A program made the translations under genes and the position numbers. Under the pieces are notes generated by a model. The model was not told the DNA's origin and did not search any database. It was given only the letters and a program-made list of their open reading frames with translations. 64,000 nucleotides of DNA, from IMG/VR virus record IMGVR_UViG_3300044960_000439; one strand, written 5' to 3'. Of this stretch, positions 4,581 to 54,409 are shown in pieces; position 1 is the first letter of the stretch, and each line of letters opens with the position of its first letter. The DNA comes from a virus.

Positions 4581-4598
4581 GGCATAAATAAGTGGAAG
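4581..4598 (+). promoter_or_regulatory. Phage promoter-like motif GGCATAAATAAGTGGAAG
   Basis: Same motif recurs at 41729, 56100, 56743, 57861, 58722, 61544 and 61975, always + strand and upstream of genes or RNAs. Confidence 0.65.
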
Positions 4599-7264: not shown

Positions 7265-8036
7265 ATTATTTCACTTTAAGGAGTTACAAATGTATATGGC
7301 TAAAGGACAGGATGTAGACAATATCATTAAACTAACTTCTACGTGCTTTTTCCGTGGGAAAATGTCCAACCCTAAGACCCGCGAGAAGCAAGAATTGATT
7401 AAATTCTTGCGCGGCTTAAAGGCTATCGCTTTCTGGAAATTCGGAGAACACAGTAATACATATTCACGGTTGGCTAGAACATTTAAAAGGATCGGTTATG
7501 GCGGACACCCCTCTGCTGTATGCTTGAAACAGATCAAGCAAACATTGAACCTTCCCAGAGATGAATATTTCAAGTTGTGTGTTCTATGTGAACAGGTTCC
7601 CTATGAAATACTTTATTTATTCGTAGTTCACAAAGACAGAGTTAGGTTTTGGAAAAAGCTAGATAAATCAATTAAGTTTAATGTTGATGGAACCTGTAAT
7701 GTAGAAGTGGTATGTTCTTTGCTAAAAGAGCAGCTACGTAAATGTACAAAGAAGATTGAAAGAGAAAGGATTAATAGAGTAATTTCACTGCTATTGTCCA
7801 ATACAAAGCGGTTGAAGCTAGTCGAATCTTTAGTAGATCGCGTTGCAAAAGGCGGTACAAAGGACTTTTATTACAAGCTTTGCTATGTAACTCACTCAAT
7901 TCCAAAGTCTGTTAGACTTAAATTAAGTAACAATCCTATTTTATGGCATAAGCTGTATAACGAGCACATAGATTCTCTCAATGTAAGAAATCGGAAGAGA
8001 AACAAGGAAGTGTTTAAGCTTCTCAACCAAACCTAG
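7254..8036 (+). CDS. Basic hypothetical protein, possibly DNA-binding
   Basis: ORF track; K/R-rich. Confidence 0.65.
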   Translation: MFAKLFHFKELQMYMAKGQDVDNIIKLTSTCFFRGKMSNPKTREKQELIKFLRGLKAIAFWKFGEHSNTYSRLARTFKRIGYGGHPSAVCLKQIKQTLNLPRDEYFKLCVLCEQVPYEILYLFVVHKDRVRFWKKLDKSIKFNVDGTCNVEVVCSLLKEQLRKCTKKIERERINRVISLLLSNTKRLKLVESLVDRVAKGGTKDFYYKLCYVTHSIPKSVRLKLSNNPILWHKLYNEHIDSLNVRNRKRNKEVFKLLNQT

Positions 8037-27993: not shown

Positions 27994-29307
27994 ACAACCC
28001 TCAACTAAAGTCGAAGGTTTTATTGTAGGACGTAGCAAGCATGCTTGCCCACATCCCCAACATTAGGCGTGTTTACAGCCGCCCTTGGCAGCGGGGCACC
28101 ACTACCAATCCGGGCAAGGTTTCGACTGGCATTGCAGTCGGCGTGCGCCCGGAGACCACACTGATCACACACGAAACGATGCTTGATGCGCCGCCCCAAC
28201 GCCCCGCAGCAAGAACATGTCTGGCTGGTGTAAGCGGGGTTGGTGTACTCGACCACGATTCCGACGGCCTTGGCCTTGTATTCGACAAAGGTCTGAAGTT
28301 GCCGAAAAGCCCAGCGATTCAGTCTCGCTCTCATGCGCTTACCAGCCTGGATGCTGCTGCGTATGTGGCGCAAGTTTTCCATCACGATCTTGAAAGCACC
28401 AATGCGCAGCGCTTCGGCAACAATCGCTTTGCTCGTTTCGTGGTTGATATGTCTGACACGTCGCCGCTCTCTGCCAGAGACCTGCCTAAGCTTCTGTTTG
28501 GCGCTTTGGCTGCCGTTGGACTGCAAACGACGACGAAGGGCAAGGTATTGATCGCGCTTGTGGCGCAGCTCCCCGCCGCCCCATACCTTGCCAGTGCTGG
28601 TGGCAGCGAGATTGTTTTCTCCGACATCCACCCCCATAACGGGGCCGGATGTCATGGGTTCAGTATCATCAGACTCGACGACGAGGTCGAAATACCATCG
28701 TCCCTTACGACAAACCAACTCGGCTTCTTTGGCTTTGCCCGACGCAAGGATGCGACGCTGGTGCTCTCCAAGCAGCACGGTGATGGTTATGCGGCCGGAA
28801 AGAGTGTAGAGGCTCAAGCGCTCCCCTTTGAAAGAATATGTGCGCTTGTCGAAATGGACGCTCGCGCGTTTGAAACGGATCGCAGGAACTGGGGCGTCCT
28901 TTTTAATGCGACCAAGCTCTTTTTGCGCCTTGTAGGCTTTGCAGACCGAGAAGATGGCATTACAGACCATTTGCGAGCCCAGTGGCGTTTCCTTGCGCAG
29001 CTTGGCATAGGCCAGATGGTGCAGCGCCACGCGGTTCCAGCAGCGGTGCTCCATTACTATTGGCACCAAGCTGTTGCAGGCCTCGGCATAAGCCGACTGC
29101 AACGCCGTCAAGGCCGCCGCTTGGTTAGGATCAACATTGAGGCGAATCGAAGCGGTGCGCAGCATAGTTTATCGCCGCTTGGTGATATGAATAGACGCAA
29201 TTCCTATTGGCAACTATGCCAATCACGTAAAACATTATACATTATATGGTGCGCTTCGCGCGACTTCAATCCTATCGCGATTGAAATCGCGGGTCTCTCT
29301 GTGGAGC
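27990..29307 (-). mobile_element. IS200/IS605-family element, tnpB-only (IS1341-like)
   Basis: Visibly GC-rich island. Left-end hairpin CGCGATTTCAATC..GATTGAAGTCGCG after TTGAC (minus strand). Right end ..CCTTCGACTTTAGTTGAGGGTTGTTTAC. Promoter TTGAAG-17-TATAAT on minus strand. Exact boundaries uncertain by a few nt. Confidence 0.85.
28020..29165 (-). CDS. tnpB: TnpB RNA-guided endonuclease
   Basis: RuvC GVDVGEN / IVMENL / HADCNASRN; Zn finger CSCCG..CDQCG; TSQTC; intact D-E-D. Confidence 0.93.
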   Translation of the reverse strand: MLRTASIRLNVDPNQAAALTALQSAYAEACNSLVPIVMEHRCWNRVALHHLAYAKLRKETPLGSQMVCNAIFSVCKAYKAQKELGRIKKDAPVPAIRFKRASVHFDKRTYSFKGERLSLYTLSGRITITVLLGEHQRRILASGKAKEAELVCRKGRWYFDLVVESDDTEPMTSGPVMGVDVGENNLAATSTGKVWGGGELRHKRDQYLALRRRLQSNGSQSAKQKLRQVSGRERRRVRHINHETSKAIVAEALRIGAFKIVMENLRHIRSSIQAGKRMRARLNRWAFRQLQTFVEYKAKAVGIVVEYTNPAYTSQTCSCCGALGRRIKHRFVCDQCGLRAHADCNASRNLARIGSGAPLPRAAVNTPNVGDVGKHACYVLQ

Positions 29308-29321
29308 GTCAATGATAGTAA

Positions 29322-32300
29322 ATGGCAGATTACCTACTCATCGGAGACGGTCTTGGAAGACTATATCTCGAATCCGATGATCCAACAAGTCCTTCTTTTC
29401 TGCTGCTAGACGTTGTTGGTGTATCTGCCTCAGATTCTACCACTACCACACCAGGGGATTATAGCTTTACCTGGCCAGACAGAGCACCTTACATCATAGT
29501 AAGATGTACTGGCGCAGGGGCTGGTTGCGTTAGAGTTTTTGATAATTCCGTTAATAACTATTTACTCGTTAGAGGTGGTGGGGGTGGTGGTTATTCTAGA
29601 GTTAAACTAACTAGACCAATAGAAAAAGATGTAGAGAAATTTCATGTAGGAAATAAAGGACTTGCAGAATCTAGTTCTAATACTGAATCTCAAGGAGAGG
29701 CATCCTGGTTTGGTAGATATAACAATAGCATTAAAATAATAGGGAATGGTGCTTATAGAGATCAAGGAGGAACAGGAGCTTGTACTTCTGTATCAGATGG
29801 TTCTACTATCTTAAGCTATTTTCTTGCTACCGGAGGTAATGGATGTACTGCAGATTATACTTACGATCCGAGCCTTGGGTTAATAATAAATAAATGTGGA
29901 TGCCCTGGTCATCCCGGATCAGATTCAGGTGATGGAGCTGATGGTAATTGCGGGTACAACGATGTCAATAACCCTTGCGATGGAATCCCTCAGGATCCTG
30001 GTTCTGGAGGTGCCCGTTGTAGTTCCTTTAATGATGGAAAAGATGGTTCAGTAAGGATAATAGTAGAGGCACCAGGTAGCGTTGGGATTAAATTTACAGT
30101 ACAACCTACTGATACACCAGTAAATATAGTAATAGCTCCTCCTATAGAAGTATCTTCTTATTTTATTAACTACAATGTATTAGGAGGCAGTGAATCTCAA
30201 GTAACTATTAGCAAAGATTCAAGTTCTCCGGGAGGTACGTTATCTGGTACTCTAACTAAAAATGTTGTAGAAGATCATTTATTTGTTTTTGACGATATCA
30301 AGATAAATCAAGCTGGTACTGGGTATAAGCTTGTAGCTACTTCATACCCAAATAATTATCAGGATACCAGTAGCTCTTTTGATATATTTGTTAATTTAGT
30401 CAACTTAAACTCATCTTTCTTTAATACTCCTGACTACTCTCCTTCCATAGTAAATGCGATTGGATCTAACTTATCAGTTTTCACTGGGACTAGAACTAGT
30501 GAAAGTCGTAGTTCAGTATTGCCTAATTTAAAGACTGAAGACAGTACAGCAGGAACCAAGGCTTCTTCTGTAGAATTTAAAAATAATATCTATACTTCTA
30601 TTTCTTATTCAGAATCTACCCTAGCTTCTCTAAAAACTAATAACTACTTTAATTTAAATGACATTTGTACTGACACTGTTTCTTCTATAGTTAGCCCTAA
30701 AGTATCGCTAAGAACAGTAGATAGTACTACTAATCCTGTCTCATCTTTAGCAACAGCAAATAATTTACTATCTACAACTGATATCTCTGTTGAGTATCAG
30801 AATAATACTCTAACTACTTCTTCTCTATTAACTTCTACGGAAGTATCTACTAGATATTATGCTAATACTTTAGCTGCTTCTTCTTTCTTAACATGTAGTT
30901 ATTTTACAGCTAATTATGATGTAACTATTCCAGCAGCTAAATTATATTTACTTACTCAAGATAATAGTATTCATTACCACGGAGGAGAAGCTACTACACA
31001 AGTATTTATACAGGCTTTTTGGGATGACTTCTCACAGAATTTTATCAAATCAAATCTAGATAATAAATTAAGCCTGAACTTACCTGAAGACTCTATATAT
31101 AGAAGTACATATAAATTAGCTTTCATAAGTAATATAGATATAGATTCCCAAGTTAATAGTTTTGAATCTGCTTTCCTTGGGTCAAAAACAACTACGAGCA
31201 GTAATGAAATAAATAATTACTTTGATTCGAATTCGTTGGGATTCAAATCCACTTTTGAATTAAAGCTATATAATGCCGATTATCATCAAGCGCTACTTTC
31301 TGCTAGATCTGCAATAAATAGTTATACACTTAATTATGAATATGGTTCTGCTTTCTTAAGTCTCTTTCTAGAGACAGCTTCTGATATTAGAGATAATAGT
31401 GCTTTCTATGAAGCTGCTACACTAACAAATAAATTATATCTAAATACAATTACAGTCGAAACGGAATCAGATAGTTTACTTCTGGGAGGAAAATTATATC
31501 TATCTGTACAAGATAGTATTTCTACTTATAGTCAGCATATTCCATCTGTAATCAATTATATCTATGTAAATGATTATCAAATTGAATATTCAAGTCTTTT
31601 TTCTGTTATAACTTTATTATTAGAAACTAACTTTCTAAACAAAGACTTCTCTACAAATCTTGTTTCTTTCTATTCAGTAATTAATTCTATACATAGAGTA
31701 TCTCAATATATAAAATCTGCTATCTCTTCTTCACTTATCCTTAATACAAATGAAAATAGTCCCAGATTTGCTAGTAGCAAACTAATAATATTAGCTACTG
31801 CTTTCTTAAATGACTCAGTTACTATCTCTGATAGTTTCCATTCTGGTATTTACCTTCTTTGTATATCTTCATTTGTTAATGAGACTAGTGAAAGAAATAA
31901 TGGTTATTTATCTCAATCTATATCTAGCTCTTACCAAGAAGCCACAGACTTAGCTTCTGCTTTATCTATAAGTTTATCTACTGAAGCGGCATCTGTAGAT
32001 AGTTTCTCTACAGGCTATCTAGCTAGCCAATTATCTTTCAAAACATACTTAACGTCTGAAGATACTGATATCAGTACTGAGACGAATAAATTATCTACAT
32101 TATCTTATATTAATCTCATTTTAGTTAATACTGAATCTTCACTGCACTTCTTATTAATACAAGGAGAATTAATAACATGGTCTACAGATCATCAGACAAA
32201 TTATGAATCATCAACTTTAGATAATATCATGTCTCTATTCACAGAAGAGACTCAAACTACTGCAGAACTTCCTGATGCAGTAGTAGCTCTTTCACTGAAT

Positions 32301-41728: not shown

Positions 41729-41746
41729 GGAATAAATATCTGGGAG
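41729..41746 (+). promoter_or_regulatory. Phage promoter-like motif GGAATAAATATCTGGGAG
   Basis: Preceded by AATTTGC exactly like the 4581 copy; ends 9 nt before the orphan CRISPR repeat. Confidence 0.6.
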
Positions 41747-41755
41747 TCCTTTCGC

Positions 41756-41791
41756 GTTGCAATGCCTGCGAAGAGGCTTGGTTTCTTCGAC
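41756..41791 (+). CRISPR. Orphan CRISPR repeat (36 nt) GTTGCAATGCCTGCGAAGAGGCTTGGTTTCTTCGAC
   Basis: The last 33 nt match repeat 45505..45537 except for 2 positions; 3' stem CGAAGA/TCTTCG followed by AC. Confidence 0.8.
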
Positions 41792-41840
41792 ATTTGTAAG
41801 GACTTTTGGTAGCTACATTTTAATCCCGGGAGGAAAAGCT

Positions 41841-42551
41841 ATGAGGTACCTATCTCTCCTTATTGGCCTGCTTTCTATTTGTATTACCATTACTTCTCAA
41901 GCACAAAATCTCAAAACACTTAATGACCCAAATGTTGAAGTAAGGATTTTGTGTGATGGTGTACAAATTACTAATACGAGTCCTGCAGAAGTCAGTGTAT
42001 TTGATTGGACTGTAGTAATTGGACAGAGAACTGATGATCATTATCCTCAGCCGTTGTGTTGTGCTTATATTTTAGATGGTAAATACGATCCAGTTATCAC
42101 TTACACTTCATTTGGAACTCCAAAGCAAGGTCTTCGCGAGAACGTTAGAGGCGGTGGTTTCTATTTTCATTGCACAATCCCACCACGTAATTCTGTCGTA
42201 CTAAGGGCTCTAGTACTTGGTTTCGGTAATGCTCACGCTATTACAAATATTCCGAAAAACGCAGTTTATAAACGAGTTAATAGAAATCTTGGTAGAAAAC
42301 ATGCTTTTGGAATCTATGCTTGCATGTCTACAATTCAAACTGCAATAGATAAGGGAGTCACTAAAGAAGAAGATTTGAAATCGACCAAAGAGATTGGTAT
42401 CCTGCTATTAGCTTTTTACGAAGAAAAATTTCCAGAATATGCGAGAATACGAGCTGTCATTTCAGAAGACTTTTATAAACAGCTAAGAGATCATTTCAGT
42501 GATATGCAACGCACAGGAGAACAACTATATAAAACAGTCTTTTGCGAGTAA
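41841..42551 (+). CDS. Exported hypothetical protein
   Basis: GGGAGG SD before ATG 41841; signal peptide MRYLSLLIGLLSICITITSQA; the listed TTG start 41757 lies inside the CRISPR repeat. Confidence 0.75.
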   Translation: MRYLSLLIGLLSICITITSQAQNLKTLNDPNVEVRILCDGVQITNTSPAEVSVFDWTVVIGQRTDDHYPQPLCCAYILDGKYDPVITYTSFGTPKQGLRENVRGGGFYFHCTIPPRNSVVLRALVLGFGNAHAITNIPKNAVYKRVNRNLGRKHAFGIYACMSTIQTAIDKGVTKEEDLKSTKEIGILLLAFYEEKFPEYARIRAVISEDFYKQLRDHFSDMQRTGEQLYKTVFCE

Positions 42552-42663: not shown

Positions 42664-42775
42664 CCGGTGGTAATGTTGAGCTACCGGAAACGCTATGGGC
42701 GGGCGGTCCGCCCATGTAATCACCAGCCAGAGTGCTGGCGGCGAGCCGGCTTGGCCGAGACGACCGGAGGAGTGT
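42664..42775 (+). other. GC-rich multi-hairpin leader
   Basis: CCGGTGG/CTACCGG, ATGGGCGG/CCGCCCAT and CCAGC/GCTGG stems before the GGAGG SD of 42780. Confidence 0.45.
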
Positions 42776-42779
42776 TGCT

Positions 42780-43544
42780 ATGTCTGCTATTGTTAAGGTT
42801 ACCGTTCAGCGTACCAAGGATTGGGTGCGCGCACGGCGATTGGAAACCGGGGAAAACGTCCCGGAAACAATCGAAGTTGAGGTCCTAGCAGATCAGTTAC
42901 CTCGCGAAGTCCGGGAGCTACTGATCGAAGCCGGGGGCGGATCATACCCCGACGAATTCGCTGGCGATATCCGGCAGGACTACCTATGGATGTATCGGTC
43001 CGACTTGCGGTACGGGCGTGTACCGATCATCGTAGATGCCGACCAACCGACGCCGGAGTCAATAGCCGCGGCGATTCTGACTGCCGACAAGGAACGGCGT
43101 CGGATGAAGATGGAAGTTGAGGAAAAGATTCGTCAGCGTGAAGAACGAGAGCGTGCACTTGCCGAAGAATGGGCGCGGCTGCCCCTGGAGCAGCGGGCCA
43201 GTGCGGCTGGCGTGTGCGTTGCCCGCGACCCCGAGACGGGTACCATGAGCGCCTATGGGGTGCAATTGTACGATATCTCGGCGCTGAAGAAGTACGTACC
43301 AGAGGCGTTGGACGAGGCGGTCCTGGAGGTGGAACGCCTTCGCGAAATCGAGCGTGGCAGAGAGGCGATCAAGCATCGCGCTCTGCTGGCTGAATTACTC
43401 GGCTTAGTACCAGAAGACGCGCTGCGGCATGCCGTTAAACGTGCCGCCATTGATGGTATCGCCGGGAAACCGGCGTCAATTGAAGAAGTGCGGAAACAAG
43501 TCCATCAAGCCTGCCAGGCTGGCGGCGTCCGCATAAGTATTTAA
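42780..43544 (+). CDS. GC-rich hypothetical protein with coiled-coil
   Basis: GGAGG SD before ATG 42780, in frame with listed 42732; codon style distinct from the AT-rich backbone. Confidence 0.75.
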   Translation: MSAIVKVTVQRTKDWVRARRLETGENVPETIEVEVLADQLPREVRELLIEAGGGSYPDEFAGDIRQDYLWMYRSDLRYGRVPIIVDADQPTPESIAAAILTADKERRRMKMEVEEKIRQREERERALAEEWARLPLEQRASAAGVCVARDPETGTMSAYGVQLYDISALKKYVPEALDEAVLEVERLREIERGREAIKHRALLAELLGLVPEDALRHAVKRAAIDGIAGKPASIEEVRKQVHQACQAGGVRISI

Positions 43545-43564
43545 CAAACGTTGCGTTTATTACA

Positions 43565-43596
43565 GGCGGCCGGTGTGTACTCAAGCACCGGCCGCC
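43565..43596 (+). other. Perfect 11-bp hairpin between 42780..43544 and the Cas12m-like gene
   Basis: GGCGGCCGGTG-tgtactcaag-CACCGGCCGCC; no U tract. Confidence 0.6.
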
Positions 43597-43717
43597 GTTG
43601 TATCGGAAATCAGCGCTTCCTACTTCGCCCTGCAGTAAGAGATGCTCTAACGAATGTTGTCTATTCTAGTGGAACTGAGGGTTCTTTATCTCTAGGAATG
43701 GGAATAGGAGGACTATC

Positions 43718-45379
43718 ACGCCATTCGGCAGAATAGCCGGCCCAACTATTGTCTATAAATATGGGGCGAAAAAACCAACTACAAACGCAGAAGCGATTTT
43801 GGACCAGTTGCGCAAAGCACATCAGTACCGCAACAAGCTTGTCGAAATAGAGCTTCAACGACGCAAACTCGTCGAAGAAGCTGTCAAGAATATCGAAAGT
43901 GATGTCCGCCATTTGACGGACAAGTTAGAACAGCTTGAACTGGACATTGACTATACGGTTAGAAAAATCAGCAACCACAAACAGAAGAATCAGACTCGAA
44001 CTATCCCTGTCGAATTGAAAGAACGTCTCAAATCATTGAAAACTCAGTACAGAGAAGCGCTGCGGCGTATGAAAAAGGCCAAGAAAGCCGCGTACGCTCG
44101 TCCAGAAACGCAGGAGGCATTGAATCGAATTGAAGGAAAAGTGAGGGCTGAACACAAAAAAGCCCGTAATTTGTGTGGGCTCTATTGGGGTACTTACTGC
44201 CACGTAGAGCAGATCATCCCATGTATCAGAAAAGGACCGCCGCCGAAATTCCGCCGTTTCGACGGCAGCGGTGTATTAGCGGTCCAGCTTCAAAAGGGAG
44301 AAAACATTGCACGGTTGGAGAGCGGCGAAGACCGTCGCATCCGCATTGAGGGCTGCGGCAAGCGACGCATATTATGGCTGCGCATCGGATCGGACGAGAA
44401 CCGCGATCCGATCTGGGCGACGATTCCATTTACTTATCATCGTGAAATTCCAAGCGATGCGAAAATCAAGTGGGTGAAAGTCAAAGCCCAACGCATTGCA
44501 TGCCAAACTGAGTGGGAGGTGCTCTTTACGCTGGAACGGAGTTCCGGCTGGAAAAAGCCCGACCTAGCTCAGGATGGAGCAGTTGCCATCGACATCGGTT
44601 GGCGCAATTTCGATGATCGCATTCGCGTAGCATACTGGATTGGTAGTGACGGACGCGAAGGCGAAATTGCACTGCCCCATAACATGGTTGGCAAGGCGCT
44701 TGAACAAGTTGAGCATTTACGATCATTGCGAGACAAGAATTTTAACGAGATTAAGCAGCAACTGCTTGACGCTATCGGTGCGCTCCAGATTCCGGAGTGG
44801 CTAAAGGAGGTTACGAAAACGCTGCATCAGTGGCGTAGTCAAGGAAGACTGGCGGCGCTGGCCATTCGATGGCGGCAACAGCGATTCGATGGTGACAATG
44901 ATATATTTGCTCTACTAGAAACGTGGCGGGTCCGCGACAAGCACCTTTACGAATGGGAGGCACATCTCCGCGTGAAGGCTATTCGTTGCCGCAACGATTA
45001 TTTTGCCAACGTCGTAGCCGATTTGTCTCGTCGTTACAAGACAGCGGTTGTTGAGGATTTTGACTTGCGGAACGTTACACAGGTCGATCCGATACAAACG
45101 GAACAAATTGGCGATGGACGTCAGCTCTATCGTGCACACATCGCCGCGGCCGGTGGCTTACGGCAGATGATTAAGAATCGCTTTGCCGAAACGCAGATCG
45201 TGTCTGCCGTGCTCACAACGCAGACCTGCACGGAGTGCGGCGAAATCATGAACTTCGACGCGGCCGAGAGCGTATTTAGCAAATGTTCACATTGTGGCCA
45301 TGCGTTTGATCAAGACCGCGCAGCGGCGATTAACCTGATGCGACGATACGAGGAAAGGCTAGTTGCTGCGAACAGCTAG
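43718..45379 (+). CDS. cas12m: Type V-U1/V-M (Cas12m-like) TnpB-derived RuvC effector, ~553 aa, apparent ACG start
   Basis: IVYKYGAKKP..LDQLRKAHQYRNKLVEIE, LYWGTY, KFRRFDGSGVLAVQLQ, PIWATIPF..HREIP, RuvC-I VAIDIGWR, QWRS.GRLAAL..RW, RuvC-II VVEDFDLR, Zn finger CTECG..CSHCG, RuvC-III FDQDRAAAINL; CRISPR repeats downstream. Frame is open from 43679; the listed TTG 43799 cuts off conserved residues. Confidence 0.85.
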   Translation, partial: TPFGRIAGPTIVYKYGAKKPTTNAEAILDQLRKAHQYRNKLVEIELQRRKLVEEAVKNIESDVRHLTDKLEQLELDIDYTVRKISNHKQKNQTRTIPVELKERLKSLKTQYREALRRMKKAKKAAYARPETQEALNRIEGKVRAEHKKARNLCGLYWGTYCHVEQIIPCIRKGPPPKFRRFDGSGVLAVQLQKGENIARLESGEDRRIRIEGCGKRRILWLRIGSDENRDPIWATIPFTYHREIPSDAKIKWVKVKAQRIACQTEWEVLFTLERSSGWKKPDLAQDGAVAIDIGWRNFDDRIRVAYWIGSDGREGEIALPHNMVGKALEQVEHLRSLRDKNFNEIKQQLLDAIGALQIPEWLKEVTKTLHQWRSQGRLAALAIRWRQQRFDGDNDIFALLETWRVRDKHLYEWEAHLRVKAIRCRNDYFANVVADLSRRYKTAVVEDFDLRNVTQVDPIQTEQIGDGRQLYRAHIAAAGGLRQMIKNRFAETQIVSAVLTTQTCTECGEIMNFDAAESVFSKCSHCGHAFDQDRAAAINLMRRYEERLVAANS

Positions 45380-45501
45380 GTACGATAATATAGATATTAA
45401 TCGCTCGTAATATACAAGTTGAAACAACGTAATAGATGTCACAACGACTGCTACCAAAAAGAGGTCCAACATGTTATAAAGAACATAGTTAGATGAACGC
45501 T
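45380..45501 (+). promoter_or_regulatory. Probable CRISPR leader
   Basis: AT-rich non-coding 122 nt between effector stop and first repeat; contains ATGTT/AACAT inverted repeat. Confidence 0.5.
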
Positions 45502-45598
45502 CGTGCAATGCCTGCGAAGAGGCTTTATTTCTTCGACAGTGAAATGGATGATCAGAAGGGAACGTGTAATGCCTACGGAGAGGCTTCATTTCTTCGAC
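45502..45598 (+). CRISPR. CRISPR mini-array: two 36-nt repeats and one 25-nt spacer
   Basis: R1 45502-45537 CGTGCAATGCCTGCGAAGAGGCTTTATTTCTTCGAC; spacer AGTGAAATGGATGATCAGAAGGGAA; R2 45563-45598 CGTGTAATGCCTACGGAGAGGCTTCATTTCTTCGAC (4 mismatches to R1). Confidence 0.85.
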
Positions 45599-45612: not shown

Positions 45613-45685
45613 GGGCCGGTAGCTCAGTGGTGAGAGCGGGCGCCTTATAAGCGTCAGGTCGCAGGTTCAATTCCTGCCCGGCCTA
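45613..45685 (+). tRNA. tRNA-Ile(UAU)
   Basis: Acceptor GGGCCGG/CCGGCCT; anticodon arm GGCGC-CTTATAA-GCGTC; T loop GGTTCAATTCC. Confidence 0.92.
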
Positions 45686-45719
45686 CTGTTTCATCCCCTT
45701 CCCCATATAGGAGGACAAT

Positions 45720-49184: not shown

Positions 49185-49436
49185 ATGAAAGTTAAAGATG
49201 ACGGATACAGTTCGATTTGGGACGACAAGTCACGGAAAATAATGTTCGTTACGCATAAGTGTAAGATTCAATTACTTGGTACATTTACAACTAAAGTCAA
49301 TAACATAACTATAAAAGAATCTGGTAATATCTCGCTAAGTAATTGGTATATTAATTACACTGGTATAAAATTCGTACATTGTGTGAACGATAAAAACGAT
49401 GAATATGAAATTATTGTAGCTGTTGAGGATAAATAA
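49185..49436 (+). CDS. Small beta-rich paralogue, array member
   Basis: Shared pattern MK(V/I)..W....I.L.G....V.I.E.G.IS....V.F...Y.I.VAV. Confidence 0.75.
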   Translation: MKVKDDGYSSIWDDKSRKIMFVTHKCKIQLLGTFTTKVNNITIKESGNISLSNWYINYTGIKFVHCVNDKNDEYEIIVAVEDK

Positions 49437-49555
49437 TCTAATAGAATTCATCAATTTATCTCTAAAAGATGAGATAAATTTGATAGCTGTATCCGAAAAG
49501 GAGGAACAATGAAAATCAAATAGATAAATAATGGCAACTACCAAAGAGGACAGTT

Positions 49556-49816
49556 ATGAAAGTTAAATATGCCGGCGATTCGATTTGGGTCTACAAATCA
49601 GGGAAAATAATGTCCTTTGAATATAATCGTAATATTCATTTATTTGGTGCAACTACAACAGATGCTGCTAAGCCCAGTAGTGTAATCATACACGAATCCG
49701 GTCGTATCTCACGATACAAATCGAATTTTAATTACGTTTCTTTCATAAAATTCGTGTGTCGTTGGAAAGTCCAAAACTGTAAATATGAAATTAATGTAGC
49801 TGTTGGGGATGAATAA
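49556..49816 (+). CDS. Small beta-rich paralogue, array member
   Basis: Same family pattern. Confidence 0.75.
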   Translation: MKVKYAGDSIWVYKSGKIMSFEYNRNIHLFGATTTDAAKPSSVIIHESGRISRYKSNFNYVSFIKFVCRWKVQNCKYEINVAVGDE

Positions 49817-49888
49817 TCTAATAGAATTCATCAATTTATCTCTAAAAGATGAAATAAATCTGATAACTGTATCTGAAAAGGAGGAATA

Positions 49889-50149
49889 ATGAAAATCAAA
49901 TATGATAGCTCATGGTTATTCGCGTGGCGTACTGATTCGTTTAAAGAAGTTCTTAAGGTTGATCTGAACAACATAAAATTACTTGGTGCTCCTATAGAAG
50001 CTTTTAGCAAAATAAGTATTGTGACTGTACTAAGTACAGGTTACGTATACCCACATACAACATCTCATGGGATACATATATCTTTAGTACGGTTTTACAA
50101 ACATGATACGGATAACTATGCAGTTAAAGCAGTGACTAAACATGAATGA
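49889..50149 (+). CDS. Small beta-rich paralogue, array member
   Basis: Same family pattern; AAAGGAGG SD. Confidence 0.75.
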   Translation: MKIKYDSSWLFAWRTDSFKEVLKVDLNNIKLLGAPIEAFSKISIVTVLSTGYVYPHTTSHGIHISLVRFYKHDTDNYAVKAVTKHE

Positions 50150-50211
50150 CTTAGTATTAATAATTAGTATTAATAATGAAATTGAGTAAAATATGATGAG
50201 CATGCCGGAGG

Positions 50212-50472
50212 GTGGCTATGAAAATCAAAGCTGACTGGTGTTGGCATGATATCTTGCGACATGTAATTATTTCTGATAATTCGAATGTTGTGAGGTTACT
50301 TGGCGCACCTGCGAGACTTATTTCAACAGAAACAAAGTCAGTATTAGTAGACGATGCGGGTTTAGTTTCATGTGAAAACATACAGTGTCGTTATAGTTCG
50401 TTTGTCAGGTTTATTCATTGGGATACAAACAACTTAAGTAAATACGCCCTGGAAGCAGTTATTAAGCAATAA
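50212..50472 (+). CDS. Small beta-rich paralogue, array member
   Basis: Same family pattern. Confidence 0.75.
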   Translation: MAMKIKADWCWHDILRHVIISDNSNVVRLLGAPARLISTETKSVLVDDAGLVSCENIQCRYSSFVRFIHWDTNNLSKYALEAVIKQ

Positions 50473-50543
50473 TGACTGCGTATAATTTCATTGACATTTA
50501 TTACGATATGAGATGATTTAATGACTATCTAAGGAAGGAAGCT

Positions 50544-50801
50544 ATGAAAATTAGATATGATAAGGCATTCGTATTTTGTGATCCAGCATTGAGATCAATT
50601 ATTATTAGTGATTCAACTAATTTGAAATTGTGTGGAGAATCTGTAAAAGCGTATGATGCCTACAATCTTGCAACTATAGATGAAACTAATCGTATTTCAC
50701 CTTATAGGAAGTATGTGTTATCATATTCCAGTACTTTTGTCGCGTTTAAGCACGATATATATAACGAATATACGATTGAAGTATCAGTTAAACCTGAGTA
50801 A
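50544..50801 (+). CDS. Small beta-rich paralogue, array member
   Basis: Same family pattern; CTATCTAAGGAAGG RBS. Confidence 0.75.
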   Translation: MKIRYDKAFVFCDPALRSIIISDSTNLKLCGESVKAYDAYNLATIDETNRISPYRKYVLSYSSTFVAFKHDIYNEYTIEVSVKPE

Positions 50802-50859
50802 GTTGATATATCTATTGAGATAAGATAGTGGGATAACTTCTATCTAAGAAAGGAAAACT

Positions 50860-51111
50860 ATGAAAGTCATGTGTAGTAAGTTGTCTACCATATGGATTGA
50901 TAAACTACACAAGTCGATTTTCGACGCTGGAGCTGATAGCATAATATTATGCAGTAAATACGTAGAAGATGCTGTTAAAATGAATGCAATAGTAATTCCG
51001 GAGGTTGGTAAACTTTACCAACATGGAGTGTGTCTTAGACATAGTTCCCTAATTAGGTATGACTACGTTGGCACACATGAATTTGAACTTACGGTAGCGA
51101 TTAAGAACTAG
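50860..51111 (+). CDS. Small beta-rich paralogue, array member
   Basis: Same family pattern; 31-nt RBS/start identical to that of 51180. Confidence 0.75.
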   Translation: MKVMCSKLSTIWIDKLHKSIFDAGADSIILCSKYVEDAVKMNAIVIPEVGKLYQHGVCLRHSSLIRYDYVGTHEFELTVAIKN

Positions 51112-51179
51112 GTAACTATGTAATTTTACTAATATCCATTGTGATAAGAAATGACCTAGCTATCTAAGAAAGGAAAACT

Positions 51180-51437
51180 ATGAAAGTCATATATGAGGAC
51201 TTGCATGAGTCATGGCTTGACAAATCGCAAGGGTCGGTCATTGGCAAAGCATTAGGTGAAGTGATGTTATTCGGTGCGCGAAGAGAATATCAGAATACGT
51301 TGAACGAGGTGAAAATCCCAGAAATCAGCAATATTTCACAATATGTAAATTATCTCAAATTTGATTCCATGATTACGTTTAGGTGTTTCGGATCAGAGGA
51401 AGCTGTACTTAAGGCAGCAATCAAAGTAAGTAGTTAG
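51180..51437 (+). CDS. Small beta-rich paralogue, array member
   Basis: Same family pattern. Confidence 0.75.
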   Translation: MKVIYEDLHESWLDKSQGSVIGKALGEVMLFGARREYQNTLNEVKIPEISNISQYVNYLKFDSMITFRCFGSEEAVLKAAIKVSS

Positions 51438-52149: not shown

Positions 52150-53388
52150 ATTGCGGCGCGGAAACCCCGGACTTCAGTCCGGGGAGGAAGCGCCGTCTCT
52201 TGATCTGCTCTGCGGTATGTGATACTATACAGTATGCCACAGCGCACCGTTGTATGCAAGATAAATCCAGCCCCGGTGGCGGCTAACGCCCTCAAGGATA
52301 CTGTAGAGAAGTACGCGCTCGCCTGTGATGCTATCCTCGCCGTAACCATCCGTGAGAAGACTTCCAACAAGGTTAAGCTCCATCACGCCTGCTACAGGGA
52401 GATCAGGGAGCGCTTCGGCCTCTCTGCCAACCTGACCGTCCGCGCCATTGCCCGCGTGGCGTGGGCGGTCAAGGCAGCAAGGTGCAAGGGACGAGTCGTC
52501 AAGAAGTTCAAGCCGACGAGCATAGACTATGACGAACGCATCTTCTCCTATCGCGAGAATGAGGAGGTAGTGTCCCTATCTACCACGAATGGACGTGTCC
52601 GCGTCCCCCTTGTACTCGGACAGTACCAGCGAGATGCATTGCGCGGGAAGAAACCCACCGCCGCAAAGCTCGTCTATCGGAACCGTGAATGGTACATCCA
52701 CATCGTCATAGAGTATGATCCGGGCCCGCGGTCCAACCCGAGCTGCGCCATCGGCGTGGATCGAGGTGTCTACAATATCGCTACTACCTCCACAGGGAAG
52801 TTCTATTCCGGACGTAAAGCCACGCACGTGCGCGAGAAGTTCGCGTCGCGGAGAAAGGCTCTCCAGAGCTTGGGCACGAAAGGCGCAAAACGCGCCCTGA
52901 AACGGCTGAGCGGACGGGAGAGCCGGTACATCCGCGACCTGAACCATCGAATCTCGAAGGCCATCGTTGCGGAGGCGGTTCGGAGAAACGCCGTGATCAA
53001 GTTGGAGGACTTGACCGGCATCCGGGATCGCCTCAAGCGGCTCAGCCGCGCTTGGAATCGGAAGGTCAACGCTTGGGCTTTCCGAGCACTGGAGACGATG
53101 ATCCGGTACAAGGCCGAACGTGCTTGGGTCGAAGTCGTTTCGGTTCCTGCTCGTGACACGAGCCGCGAATGTTCCAAGTGCGGAGCCGTGGGCGAAAACT
53201 CTCGAAGCGGGGCACATTTCAGGTGCGCCGTCTGCGGCTATCGTCTGGCCGCCGACTTGAATGCCGCAAGGACGATTTCTGGGAGGCATGCCTGCACAGA
53301 AATGGTCGCCGTCAACCGACCTATGGTGGCGGGGTTGCATTCGTGCACCTCAGCTACAAGCCCCGCACTTTAGTGCGGGGTAGTTGAC
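52150..53388 (+). mobile_element. IS200/IS605-family element, tnpB-only, inserted just 3' of tRNA-Lys
   Basis: LE hairpin CGGCGC..CCCCGGACTTCAGTCCGGGG..GCGCCG; RE CCCCGCACTTTAGTGCGGGGTAGTTGAC; GC-rich; promoter TTGATC-17-TACTAT; left boundary approximate. Confidence 0.87.
52234..53373 (+). CDS. tnpB: TnpB RNA-guided endonuclease
   Basis: RuvC GVDRGVYN / IKLEDL / AADLNAART; Zn finger CSKCG..CAVCG; ATG 52234 lies 5 nt after the -10 box (leaderless). Confidence 0.93.
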   Translation: MPQRTVVCKINPAPVAANALKDTVEKYALACDAILAVTIREKTSNKVKLHHACYREIRERFGLSANLTVRAIARVAWAVKAARCKGRVVKKFKPTSIDYDERIFSYRENEEVVSLSTTNGRVRVPLVLGQYQRDALRGKKPTAAKLVYRNREWYIHIVIEYDPGPRSNPSCAIGVDRGVYNIATTSTGKFYSGRKATHVREKFASRRKALQSLGTKGAKRALKRLSGRESRYIRDLNHRISKAIVAEAVRRNAVIKLEDLTGIRDRLKRLSRAWNRKVNAWAFRALETMIRYKAERAWVEVVSVPARDTSRECSKCGAVGENSRSGAHFRCAVCGYRLAADLNAARTISGRHACTEMVAVNRPMVAGLHSCTSATSPAL

Positions 53389-53401
53389 AGGAGGACTCTC
53401 T

Positions 53402-54409
53402 ATGTTAAATATGGTAGAGTATTATGTGTCGATTTCAGTTGTGAGAGACGTTGTACTACAACTATTTAAGATTATCCTTGCTGAAAAGGATATGGCTAAT
53501 GACAAGGACGGCTTTACTGATTTCACCAAATCAGTAGCCAAAAGTGCCTTGCAGAAATTGCTGCCATATTATGAGCCTGACAGAGAATCAAAGAAATTTG
53601 AAGATAGGATATTGAAAGAAATTTATGACGCAGAAATTAATCTTGATCATGTAAGCTCGTTAGATGAAAAACTAATGAGATTACGTGAAGTACTTAGTGC
53701 TATTTCAGATGAAGATCTTGATAACTTATGTGAAGCAGCAAAGTTGTTTGTTGGTATCTTCTTCTACATTGCTAATCAAGAACCCAATAATATTTTCCTT
53801 TTTGATTCAGTACGAGATAAAGTAAAACGATTAGTAGAAAGTGAATCAGAATATAAATTCCCATTACTAGTAGATATTGGTGATTTGTTCATAGTTAGTT
53901 TAGTTAAAGGTAAGCAATCTGTTCTGAACGATAAAAACATTGCATTATTACTTGACTACAAATTGATAGCATCTAAAGAGAAGCATTACAAATTTATCAT
54001 TCACTACTTGAAAAACGAGCCTGCTTATCTTGATTTTTATCAATTAAAGCAGGTTTATAAAGAAATTGAAGATTGTCTAGATAAATTGAGTGAAAGATTT
54101 GATAGCAAAGCTACTATTAAATGCCTTTGCTATCTGCAGTATGCAAAGACTACTGCAGAAAAACTTGACAAAGAAAAATACGACTCTCTACTTGAGAAGG
54201 TAGAAAAGATCCTGGGGCCACTTGATCCGTACGTTACTATGGCGGTGCTGAGTGATAAATTGCTAGCACCCTTCTTGTTCGTATGCAATGAAGATGTTCT
54301 TATTCCTACTTTCAGGAGAATCAAAAATGAGCAATTAACCTTCACTAACGAATTGCTGGAAAGTAATTTGCGTTCTTTATTTGGAAGTGGCGAGCTACGT
54401 CTTGAGTAG
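53402..54409 (+). CDS. Hypothetical helical protein
   Basis: AGGAGG SD right after the IS right end; ATG 53402. Confidence 0.72.
   Translation: MLNMVEYYVSISVVRDVVLQLFKIILAEKDMANDKDGFTDFTKSVAKSALQKLLPYYEPDRESKKFEDRILKEIYDAEINLDHVSSLDEKLMRLREVLSAISDEDLDNLCEAAKLFVGIFFYIANQEPNNIFLFDSVRDKVKRLVESESEYKFPLLVDIGDLFIVSLVKGKQSVLNDKNIALLLDYKLIASKEKHYKFIIHYLKNEPAYLDFYQLKQVYKEIEDCLDKLSERFDSKATIKCLCYLQYAKTTAEKLDKEKYDSLLEKVEKILGPLDPYVTMAVLSDKLLAPFLFVCNEDVLIPTFRRIKNEQLTFTNELLESNLRSLFGSGELRLE

What the first reader, a model, noticed from the sequence alone, without database searches (positions are those of the whole stretch)
41729..41840. Orphan CRISPR repeat with its own phage promoter motif, inside the 5' leader of a secreted-protein gene
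Seen: a third repeat copy (41756-41791, the most canonical, starting GTTGCAATG) lies 3.7 kb upstream of the array. It starts 9 nt after a copy of the recurring promoter motif and ends 49 nt before the ATG of an exported protein. The following sequence ATTTGTAAGGACTTTTGGTAGCTAC.. would be the guide. Inference, options: (a) a stand-alone crRNA gene; (b) a Cas12m processing site that cuts the mRNA leader and so controls 41841..42551; (c) the three repeats are one array split by a 3.7-kb cassette (exported protein, hypothetical, cas12m) that could excise or move by recombination between repeats.
Basis: partly seen in the sequence, partly recalled or inferred. Interest (0 to 1): 0.8.

Follow-up and report, generated by a model that had tools for sequence, protein, structure and literature searches.

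The report
Solitary Cas12m CRISPR repeat in phage leader
A hot-spring phage that carries its own DNA-binding CRISPR protein (Cas12m) has one extra CRISPR repeat, a 40-base insertion in the tip of the hairpin that begins one of its messenger RNAs; six related DNA sequences (five distinct versions) lack it and one other has it at the same base, so it is a recently gained, possibly mobile unit and not a piece of a split array.

Summary
41756-41791 is a true copy of the Cas12m repeat and the best-scoring of the three in the window. It lies 12 nt after a recurring promoter-like motif and 49 nt before the ATG of a gene whose product has a signal-peptide-like N-terminus.

Comparison with relatives changes the interpretation. 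Six related metagenomic contigs (five distinct alleles) keep the same promoter, leader and gene start but lack exactly 41752-41791 (TCGC plus the repeat). One more distant relative, L037, has the unit at the identical base. The two carriers belong to different clades whose nearest relatives lack it. The unit was therefore gained or transferred; it is not left over from an array split by a cassette, so option (c) is rejected.

The insertion sits in the apical loop of a conserved 5' hairpin that follows the promoter motif. In another relative a second solitary repeat interrupts the anticodon of tRNA-Lys.

Published Cas12m processing would cut a roughly 50-nt crRNA out of this leader. The only matches to its guide are the uninterrupted leaders of sister phages. 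Function is unproven: there are no RNA data, the PAM for this clade is unknown, the start codon of cas12m in this window is ACG, and the array is decayed.

This is a new variant of known solitary repeat units.

The parts
41729..41743 (+). promoter-like motif GGAATAAATATCTGG, one of 8 copies in the window
   Evidence: 8 matches, all + strand, 0.37 expected; function as a promoter is inferred
41740..41751 (+). 5' arm of the conserved leader hairpin, now separated from its 3' arm by the insertion
   Evidence: the repeat-less relatives L033 and L031 fold into a 10-13 bp hairpin here (z -3.75 and -2.9)
41752..41791 (+). 40-nt inserted unit, TCGC plus the 36-nt repeat; absent from six related contigs, present in L037
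   Evidence: alignments A2, A4; 39/40 identical to the first array repeat of L031 with its 4 upstream nt
41756..41791 (+). solitary Cas12m CRISPR repeat
41792..41816 (+). would-be guide; it is the loop and 3' arm of the leader hairpin
   Evidence: the only matches are leaders of sister phages
41828..41833 (+). ribosome-binding site GGGAGG
   Evidence: read from the sequence
41841..42551 (+). 236-aa protein (P0003) with a signal-peptide-like N-terminus; native low G+C; no known family
42692..45400 (+). high-G+C cassette (0.5-0.6 against 0.35) holding the hypothetical gene and cas12m; its left edge is a breakpoint shared with relatives
42780..43544 (+). hypothetical protein P0002, about 254 aa from the ATG at 42780
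43718..45379 (+). cas12m; the conserved start codon ATG reads ACG here, and the rest of the frame is intact
45502..45598 (+). mini-array: two repeats and one 25-nt spacer (45538-45562); the second repeat is degenerate
45613..45686 (+). tRNA-Ile(UAU); conserved right border of the variable island

Best explanation
The orphan is a solitary repeat unit: a copy of an array repeat plus 4 upstream nt. It was inserted, in the sense orientation, into the apical loop of the 5' hairpin of a conserved promoter-leader module that drives the first gene of a variable island. It would therefore be transcribed as the 5' end of that mRNA (inferred). If Cas12m is made, it should bind the repeat and cut after repeat nt 2-3 and about 17-18 nt into the leader. 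That would release a roughly 50-nt crRNA whose guide is the 3' arm of the leader hairpin, and leave the mRNA with a new 5' end about 19 nt before its ribosome-binding site (inferred from published Cas12m biochemistry). The only DNA found that matches this guide is the uninterrupted leader of sister phages. In those phages the guide sequence is preceded by CTT instead of the repeat. The carrier could thus silence the island promoter of co-infecting repeat-less relatives while being protected itself, and could also couple its own island mRNA to the Cas12m level. Shown: identity of the repeat, the insertion polymorphism, the hairpin-loop position and the guide matches. Inferred: transcription, processing, targeting.
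For: The repeat is real and the best-preserved copy. It is a clean 40-nt presence/absence polymorphism at one nucleotide position. The unit occurs in two clades whose nearest relatives lack it, so it has spread or was gained twice. The carrier L037 has an intact cas12m and a 6-repeat array. The unit is in the sense orientation behind a promoter-like motif. The position is permissive: it is the apical loop of a hairpin, and the outer stem can still form. Other solitary repeats of the family lie 11-42 nt before start codons, including that of cas12m itself in G002. Ten of the eleven solitary copies inspected are in the sense of the local genes. The guide of the window equals the L033/L034 leader over 21 nt, and the guide of L037 equals the L035 leader. 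Spacers of the L037 array occur in run X5 together with the repeat-less L035 allele. Published processing sites: bioRxiv 10.64898/2026.03.26.714355; single crRNA and no tracrRNA: PMC11013384.
Against: There is no RNA evidence at all. The published Cas12m PAM is 5'-TTN (PMC10442227, PMC11013384), whereas the putative target has CTT. In this window the cas12m start codon is ACG, and the array is decayed to one spacer with a degenerate second repeat. The system may therefore be dying in this lineage. Most relatives do without the unit. The three differences between the two copies fit neutral drift. Some solitary repeats in G002 and L020 lie inside reading frames, not in leaders.
Confidence: 0.4

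Rival explanations
1. It is a neutral relic. A repeat unit was copied from an array into a tolerant spot, a hairpin loop, by illegitimate recombination. It then passed between co-infecting relatives by ordinary homologous recombination across the highly conserved leader flanks. It does nothing.
For: The unit is absent from six related contigs (five distinct alleles), so it is dispensable. The flanks are mosaic between clades, which shows frequent gene conversion here. cas12m has ACG at its start and the array is decayed. The 3 differences in 40 nt between the two copies match flank divergence. A sister unit destroys a tRNA gene in L032, which looks like damage rather than design.
Against: The same nucleotide position and the same 4-nt extension are found in two clades. 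The orphan is the best-preserved repeat in the window. There is a strong sense-orientation bias among solitary copies. Both insertions with a known empty site follow YTT in a hairpin loop.
Confidence: 0.33
2. It is purely cis-regulatory: a Cas12m binding and cleavage site on the island mRNA that gives feedback control of the downstream genes, cas12m included, with no DNA target.
For: In the window, in L037 and in G002 the unit lies upstream of the transcription unit or gene that contains cas12m. In G001 and at the integrase-like gene of G002 the ribosome-binding site lies within 11-17 nt of the repeat, inside the stretch Cas12m would hold as guide.
Against: In the window the ribosome-binding site is 37 nt from the repeat, outside a 17-20 nt guide. 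A strong hairpin after the middle gene (43566-43597) may end the transcript before cas12m. L033 expresses the same genes without the unit.
Confidence: 0.15
3. It is an RNA anti-CRISPR decoy of the Racr type: the solitary repeat soaks up a host-encoded Cas12m that uses the same repeat.
For: Solitary repeats in phages are known to act this way (PMC10651486). Relatives L031 and L032 keep repeats but have no cas12m in the contigs seen.
Against: The phage lineage carries its own cas12m with the same repeats. No host with this repeat family was found; genome hits are Actinobacteria, Deltaproteobacteria and Omnitrophota MAGs, not evident mat hosts. There is no terminator after the unit.
Confidence: 0.07
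4. One reading: the three repeats are one array split by a cassette that can excise through repeat-repeat recombination.
For: The direct repeats flank the 3.7 kb, so recombination between them is physically possible.
Against: The empty site is a continuous conserved leader hairpin, not an array. The high-G+C cassette starts at 42692, not at the repeat. No joined allele was found in 4 runs and 12 related contigs.
Confidence: 0.03

Closest known systems
Solitary repeat units in viruses, and RNA anti-CRISPRs (Racr; PMC10651486)
   Same: A single CRISPR repeat in a phage genome, outside any array, behind a likely promoter.
   Different: Here the phage lineage encodes the matching effector itself. 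The unit has no terminator and is part of an mRNA leader. It is type V-M, and its insertion polymorphism is seen directly in natural relatives.
Virus-borne mini-arrays used in conflicts between related viruses (recalled from Medvedeva et al. 2019 and Faure et al. 2019; not read here)
   Same: A minimal repeat and guide carried by a virus, with the guide matching close relatives.
   Different: The guide was not acquired as a spacer. It is the resident sequence next to the inserted repeat.
crRNA-like regulators (CreR, CreA, crlRNA, tracr-L, scaRNA; bioRxiv 10.1101/2024.12.27.630466, found by search and only the start of its abstract seen)
   Same: A repeat-like element outside the array, near cas genes, that could tie gene expression to the effector.
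   Different: No partially complementary promoter target with a PAM was found in the window. The repeat is canonical, not degenerate.
Characterised Cas12m systems (MmCas12m2, GoCas12m, PmCas12m; PMC10442227, PMC11013384, bioRxiv 10.64898/2026.03.26.714355)
   Same: Effector family, 36-nt repeat with two stems, array downstream of the gene, no adaptation genes.
   Different: This one is carried by an AT-rich hot-spring phage on a high-G+C island, with a decayed two-repeat array, an ACG start codon and an extra solitary repeat.
Homing endonuclease genes (analogy only)
   Same: The insertion splits the site that the encoded activity would recognise, so the carrier is immune and empty alleles are targets.
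   Different: Cas12m binds but does not cut DNA. No conversion bias has been shown.

Membership tests
Type V-M (Cas12m) CRISPR repeat | Sequence matches the repeats that flank cas12m | tested here: met
   94% identical to array repeat 1; 58.4 bits against the family model
Type V-M (Cas12m) CRISPR repeat | Conserved 3' stem supported by compensatory changes | tested here: met
   6-bp stem, 3 pairs with double changes, 100% paired
Type V-M (Cas12m) CRISPR repeat | Member of a regularly spaced array | tested here: not met
   solitary, 3746 nt from the array
Type V-M (Cas12m) CRISPR repeat | Transcribed and processed into crRNA by Cas12m | not testable with these tools
   (kind any, no dedicated RNA search) listed only DNA runs
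Cas12m effector (gene 43718-45379) | Full-length similarity to Cas12m including the RuvC and zinc-ribbon parts | tested here: met
Cas12m effector (gene 43718-45379) | Intact gene with a usable start codon | tested here: inconclusive
   ATG of three relatives is ACG here, 6 nt after GGAGG; the frame is otherwise open
Racr-type RNA anti-CRISPR | Solitary repeat in a viral genome with its own promoter and terminator | tested here: not met
   promoter-like motif present but no terminator; the unit runs into an ORF
Racr-type RNA anti-CRISPR | Mimics the repeat of the host's CRISPR system | not testable with these tools
   host unknown; one search found the family only in unrelated MAGs
crRNA-like regulator (CreR, crlRNA, tracr-L) | Pseudo-spacer partly complementary to a promoter next to a PAM | tested here: not met
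   no match longer than 9 nt from guide position 1 anywhere in the window
Array split by an inserted cassette (option c) | Relatives with the repeats adjacent and the cassette absent, or an empty site that is an array | tested here: not met
   the empty site is a continuous leader hairpin

The most novel reading that the evidence does not exclude
Solitary Cas12m repeats behave as selfish, homing-like units. The unit inserts between a T-rich PAM-like motif and the adjacent sequence, which turns that sequence into a guide against every uninterrupted allele in sister phages. The carrier is immune because the PAM is displaced. Cas12m bound as a roadblock at empty sites then favours copying of the unit into them. 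This would explain the same-site presence in two clades, the sense bias, and the second unit in the tRNA-Lys anticodon loop after TTT.
Probability: 0.12. Interest if true: 0.9.

Novelty: new variant of a known kind. Interest (0 to 1): 0.6.

Why it matters
Solitary CRISPR repeats in phages are known, but how they arise and what they do when the phage owns the matching effector is open. This locus gives a natural before-and-after series: the filled site, several empty sites, a second filled site in another clade, and co-occurring carriers and non-carriers in hot-spring mats. The insertion event, its site preference (hairpin loops after YTT) and its consequences can therefore be tested directly. 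If the unit makes a guide from resident sequence, a new CRISPR guide could arise without spacer acquisition, and a DNA-binding-only effector could act in competition between sister phages.

Tried and rejected
- **Conversion tract.** I first thought the 26 nt after the repeat were pasted in with it, because they differ at 7 positions from L031. I dropped this when more relatives showed two alleles of that stretch, each with and without the repeat. The differences keep the hairpin.
- **Protospacer searches for the guide and the array spacer.** Window and cultured phages: nothing above chance.
- **Spacers of relatives.** Genome collection and viral contigs: no hit, so no PAM could be derived for this clade.
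- **Further copies in the window.** Covariance-model search, filters off: none.
- **Relatives through the neighbouring VWA-like protein.** Viral contigs: none.
- **Relatives through P0003.** Metagenome contigs: none. Relatives came through protein clusters and exact look-ups instead.
- **G001.** Shares the repeat but has no other similarity to the window.
- **Upstream/downstream duplication around the window's orphan.** None found.
- **Function of P0003 and P0002.** Pfam, NCBIfam, PADLOC and the Atlas gave none.
- **Whole genome.** None is held for this window.

Full report
**What is there**

The window is part of a large AT-rich phage (about 35% G+C) with nearly all genes on the + strand. It comes from hot-spring and microbial-mat metagenomes.

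Three copies of one 36-nt repeat exist, at 41756-41791, 45502-45537 and 45563-45598. I built a covariance model from 18 members of the repeat family. It scores the three copies 58.4, 54.7 and 45.2 bits and finds nothing else in the 64 kb.

The 3' stem CGNNGA/TCNNCG is kept by compensatory changes across loci.

The gene at 43718-45379 is a Cas12m: PADLOC Cas12u1 9e-94, PDB 23vw 2e-64.

The motif GGMATAAATANNTGG occurs eight times, all on the + strand, against 0.37 expected. One copy is at 41729-41743, 12 nt before the orphan repeat.

The repeat ends 49 nt before the ATG of a 236-aa protein with a signal-peptide-like N-terminus and no known family.

**Surroundings**

G+C rises from 0.35-0.40 to 0.50-0.61 between about 42600 and 45400. 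The foreign-looking cassette is thus the hypothetical gene P0002 plus cas12m. The signal-peptide gene has native composition.

The same repeat family is otherwise found with cas12m in GC-rich viral contigs and GC-rich bacterial MAGs.

**Relatives**

I obtained twelve contigs of sister phages through protein clusters and exact look-ups.

- The region between tRNA-Val and tRNA-Ile is hypervariable, with shared breakpoints at 42692-42696 and 45601.
- L033 has the signal-peptide gene, P0002, cas12m and an 8-repeat array.
- L037 has the signal-peptide gene, a small gene, cas12m and a 6-repeat array.
- L031 has an IS605-type TnpB instead of cas12m but keeps P0002 and two repeats.
- In L040 the same promoter and leader drive a different, GC-rich gene.

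**The decisive comparison**

I aligned the promoter-leader region of eight contigs (A4; also A2).

- L031, L033, L034, L035, L036 and L038 are almost identical to the window on both sides but lack exactly 41752-41791, that is TCGC plus the repeat. L040 lacks it as well.
- Run X5 holds the repeat-less form at about 80x, and run X7 holds it too.
- L037 has the unit at the identical nucleotide: TCGA plus a 35-nt repeat, three differences, stems intact.
- By gene identity the window groups with repeat-less L033/L034 (95%). L037 groups with repeat-less L035/L036 (91%). The two groups are only about 75% alike.

Ancestral presence would need several precise 40-nt deletions without flanking direct repeats. 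Two gains, or transfer by gene conversion across the conserved flanks, is the simpler reading.

The unit is 39/40 identical to the first array repeat of L031 together with its four upstream bases. This points to an array repeat as the source.

This contradicts option (c). The empty site is a continuous leader, not an array, and no allele joins 41791 to the array. The one apparent 41791->45505 joint in X5 (26-nt side) is best read as a short repeat fragment at the end of contig L028 that fits both the orphan and the array repeat.

**Where exactly it sits**

In repeat-less relatives the promoter motif runs into a 10-13 bp hairpin (L033 z = -3.75, L031 z = -2.9). Four of the five other motif copies I folded in the window are clearly followed by a 5' hairpin; the fold at 4589 is weak.

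The 40 nt lie at the top of that hairpin, after CCUU, and the outer stem can still form around the insertion. The two alleles of the 3' arm differ by changes that keep pairing.

A second solitary unit occurs in relative L032: 13 nt plus a repeat, sense strand. It is inserted between anticodon positions 35 and 36 of tRNA-Lys(UUU), after CUUU. ARAGORN no longer calls that tRNA.

Both insertions with a known empty site are thus in hairpin loops just after YTT.

**Solitary repeats elsewhere**

- A GC-rich Cas12m-bearing viral contig (G002) has seven solitary copies besides its array. One lies 42 nt before the cas12m ATG, one 11 nt before an integrase-like gene, and one 33 nt before a small ORF. 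Others lie inside reading frames.
- An unrelated AT-rich phage fragment (G001) has one copy 17 nt before a start codon.
- Ten of the eleven solitary copies inspected are in the sense of local transcription.

**Mechanism**

Published work shows that Cas12m uses a single crRNA without tracrRNA and binds but does not cut DNA (PMC11013384, PMC10442227). PmCas12m cuts pre-crRNA after repeat nt 2-3 and at guide nt 17-18, giving about 33+17 nt (bioRxiv 10.64898/2026.03.26.714355).

Applied here, Cas12m would excise a crRNA from the 5' end of the island mRNA. Its guide would be the 3' arm of the leader hairpin. The rest of the mRNA would be left with a new 5' end about 19 nt before its ribosome-binding site.

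The guide has no match in the window, in cultured phages or in other loci, except the uninterrupted leaders of sister phages. The window's guide equals L033/L034 over 21 nt, and L037's guide equals L035. Spacers of the L037 array are present in run X5, where L035 dominates.

In those targets the guide sequence is preceded by CTT. The published PAM is TTN, although other orthologues are described as having T- and C-rich PAMs. PAM licensing is therefore open.

**Cautions**

- There are no RNA data.
- In this window the conserved cas12m ATG is ACG, 6 nt after GGAGG; the frame is otherwise intact and 93% identical to L033.
- The array is reduced to one spacer, which is a diverged homologue of an L033 spacer, and the second repeat is degenerate. 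The system may be decaying in this lineage.
- Most relatives lack the unit.

I therefore give 0.40 to a functional, Cas12m-processed unit, 0.33 to a neutral relic, 0.15 to a purely cis-acting site, 0.07 to a decoy and 0.03 to option (c).

**Novelty**

Solitary repeat units and crRNA-like regulators are known. Three things look new:

- a type V-M unit in a phage that owns the effector;
- its direct capture as an insertion polymorphism at the apex of an mRNA leader hairpin, with a sister event in a tRNA anticodon loop;
- the possibility that a guide is created from resident sequence.

I rate it a new variant of a known kind, interest 0.6.

Noticed in passing
window 43707-43720: The cas12m start codon conserved as ATG in L029, L033 and L037 reads ACG in the window (a single T to C change), 6 nt after GGAGG. 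The next canonical in-frame start, TTG at 43799, would remove 27 conserved N-terminal residues.
   Followed up: yes
L032 5219-5267 (window equivalent 52106|52107): A solitary repeat plus 13 nt is inserted inside the anticodon of tRNA-Lys(UUU) in a sister phage. The 13 nt resemble the 3' end of a spacer in the L033 array. The tRNA is no longer detected.
   Followed up: partly
L015 1371-1465 and 7442-7554 (viral contig G002): Two solitary repeats have the first 20 nt (2 mismatches) or 12 nt (exact) of their downstream flank repeated 19-65 nt upstream on the same strand. One of these repeats lies in frame inside a DUF3799 PDDEXK nuclease gene, flanked by a duplicated HRQAAF. The cause is unknown: an insertion footprint or a self-target.
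   Followed up: partly
window 4581, 56100, 56743, 58722, 61544, and L040 560-660: The promoter-like motif is followed by a 5' hairpin that starts in its TGG (clear at four of the five folded copies; weak at 4589). In L040 the same motif, hairpin and leader drive an unrelated GC-rich gene, so the module looks like a reusable expression platform for cargo.
   Followed up: partly
L031 3545-4717: A sister phage carries a 390-aa IS605-type TnpB in the same island where the window has cas12m, yet keeps two CRISPR repeats before tRNA-Ile.
   Followed up: no
window 45538-45562 and L033 4895-4919: The window's only spacer is a diverged homologue of a 25-nt spacer in L033; both begin AGTGAAAT. The spacers are inherited and mutating rather than newly acquired.
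   Followed up: partly
L017 and L020 (last or solitary repeats); L016 around 7810-7850: The last 10-11 nt of the repeat are duplicated directly after the repeat in L017 and L020. In G001, partial 3' ends of repeats precede the solitary copy.
   Followed up: no
window 28000-30000 and 52200-54000: Two further high-G+C islands (about 0.50) lie in the 0.35 backbone. The second starts right after tRNA-Lys.
   Followed up: no
window 49185-51437: A run of eight tandem paralogous genes of about 85 aa. Their number and order vary among relatives (L027, L029, L032).
   Followed up: no
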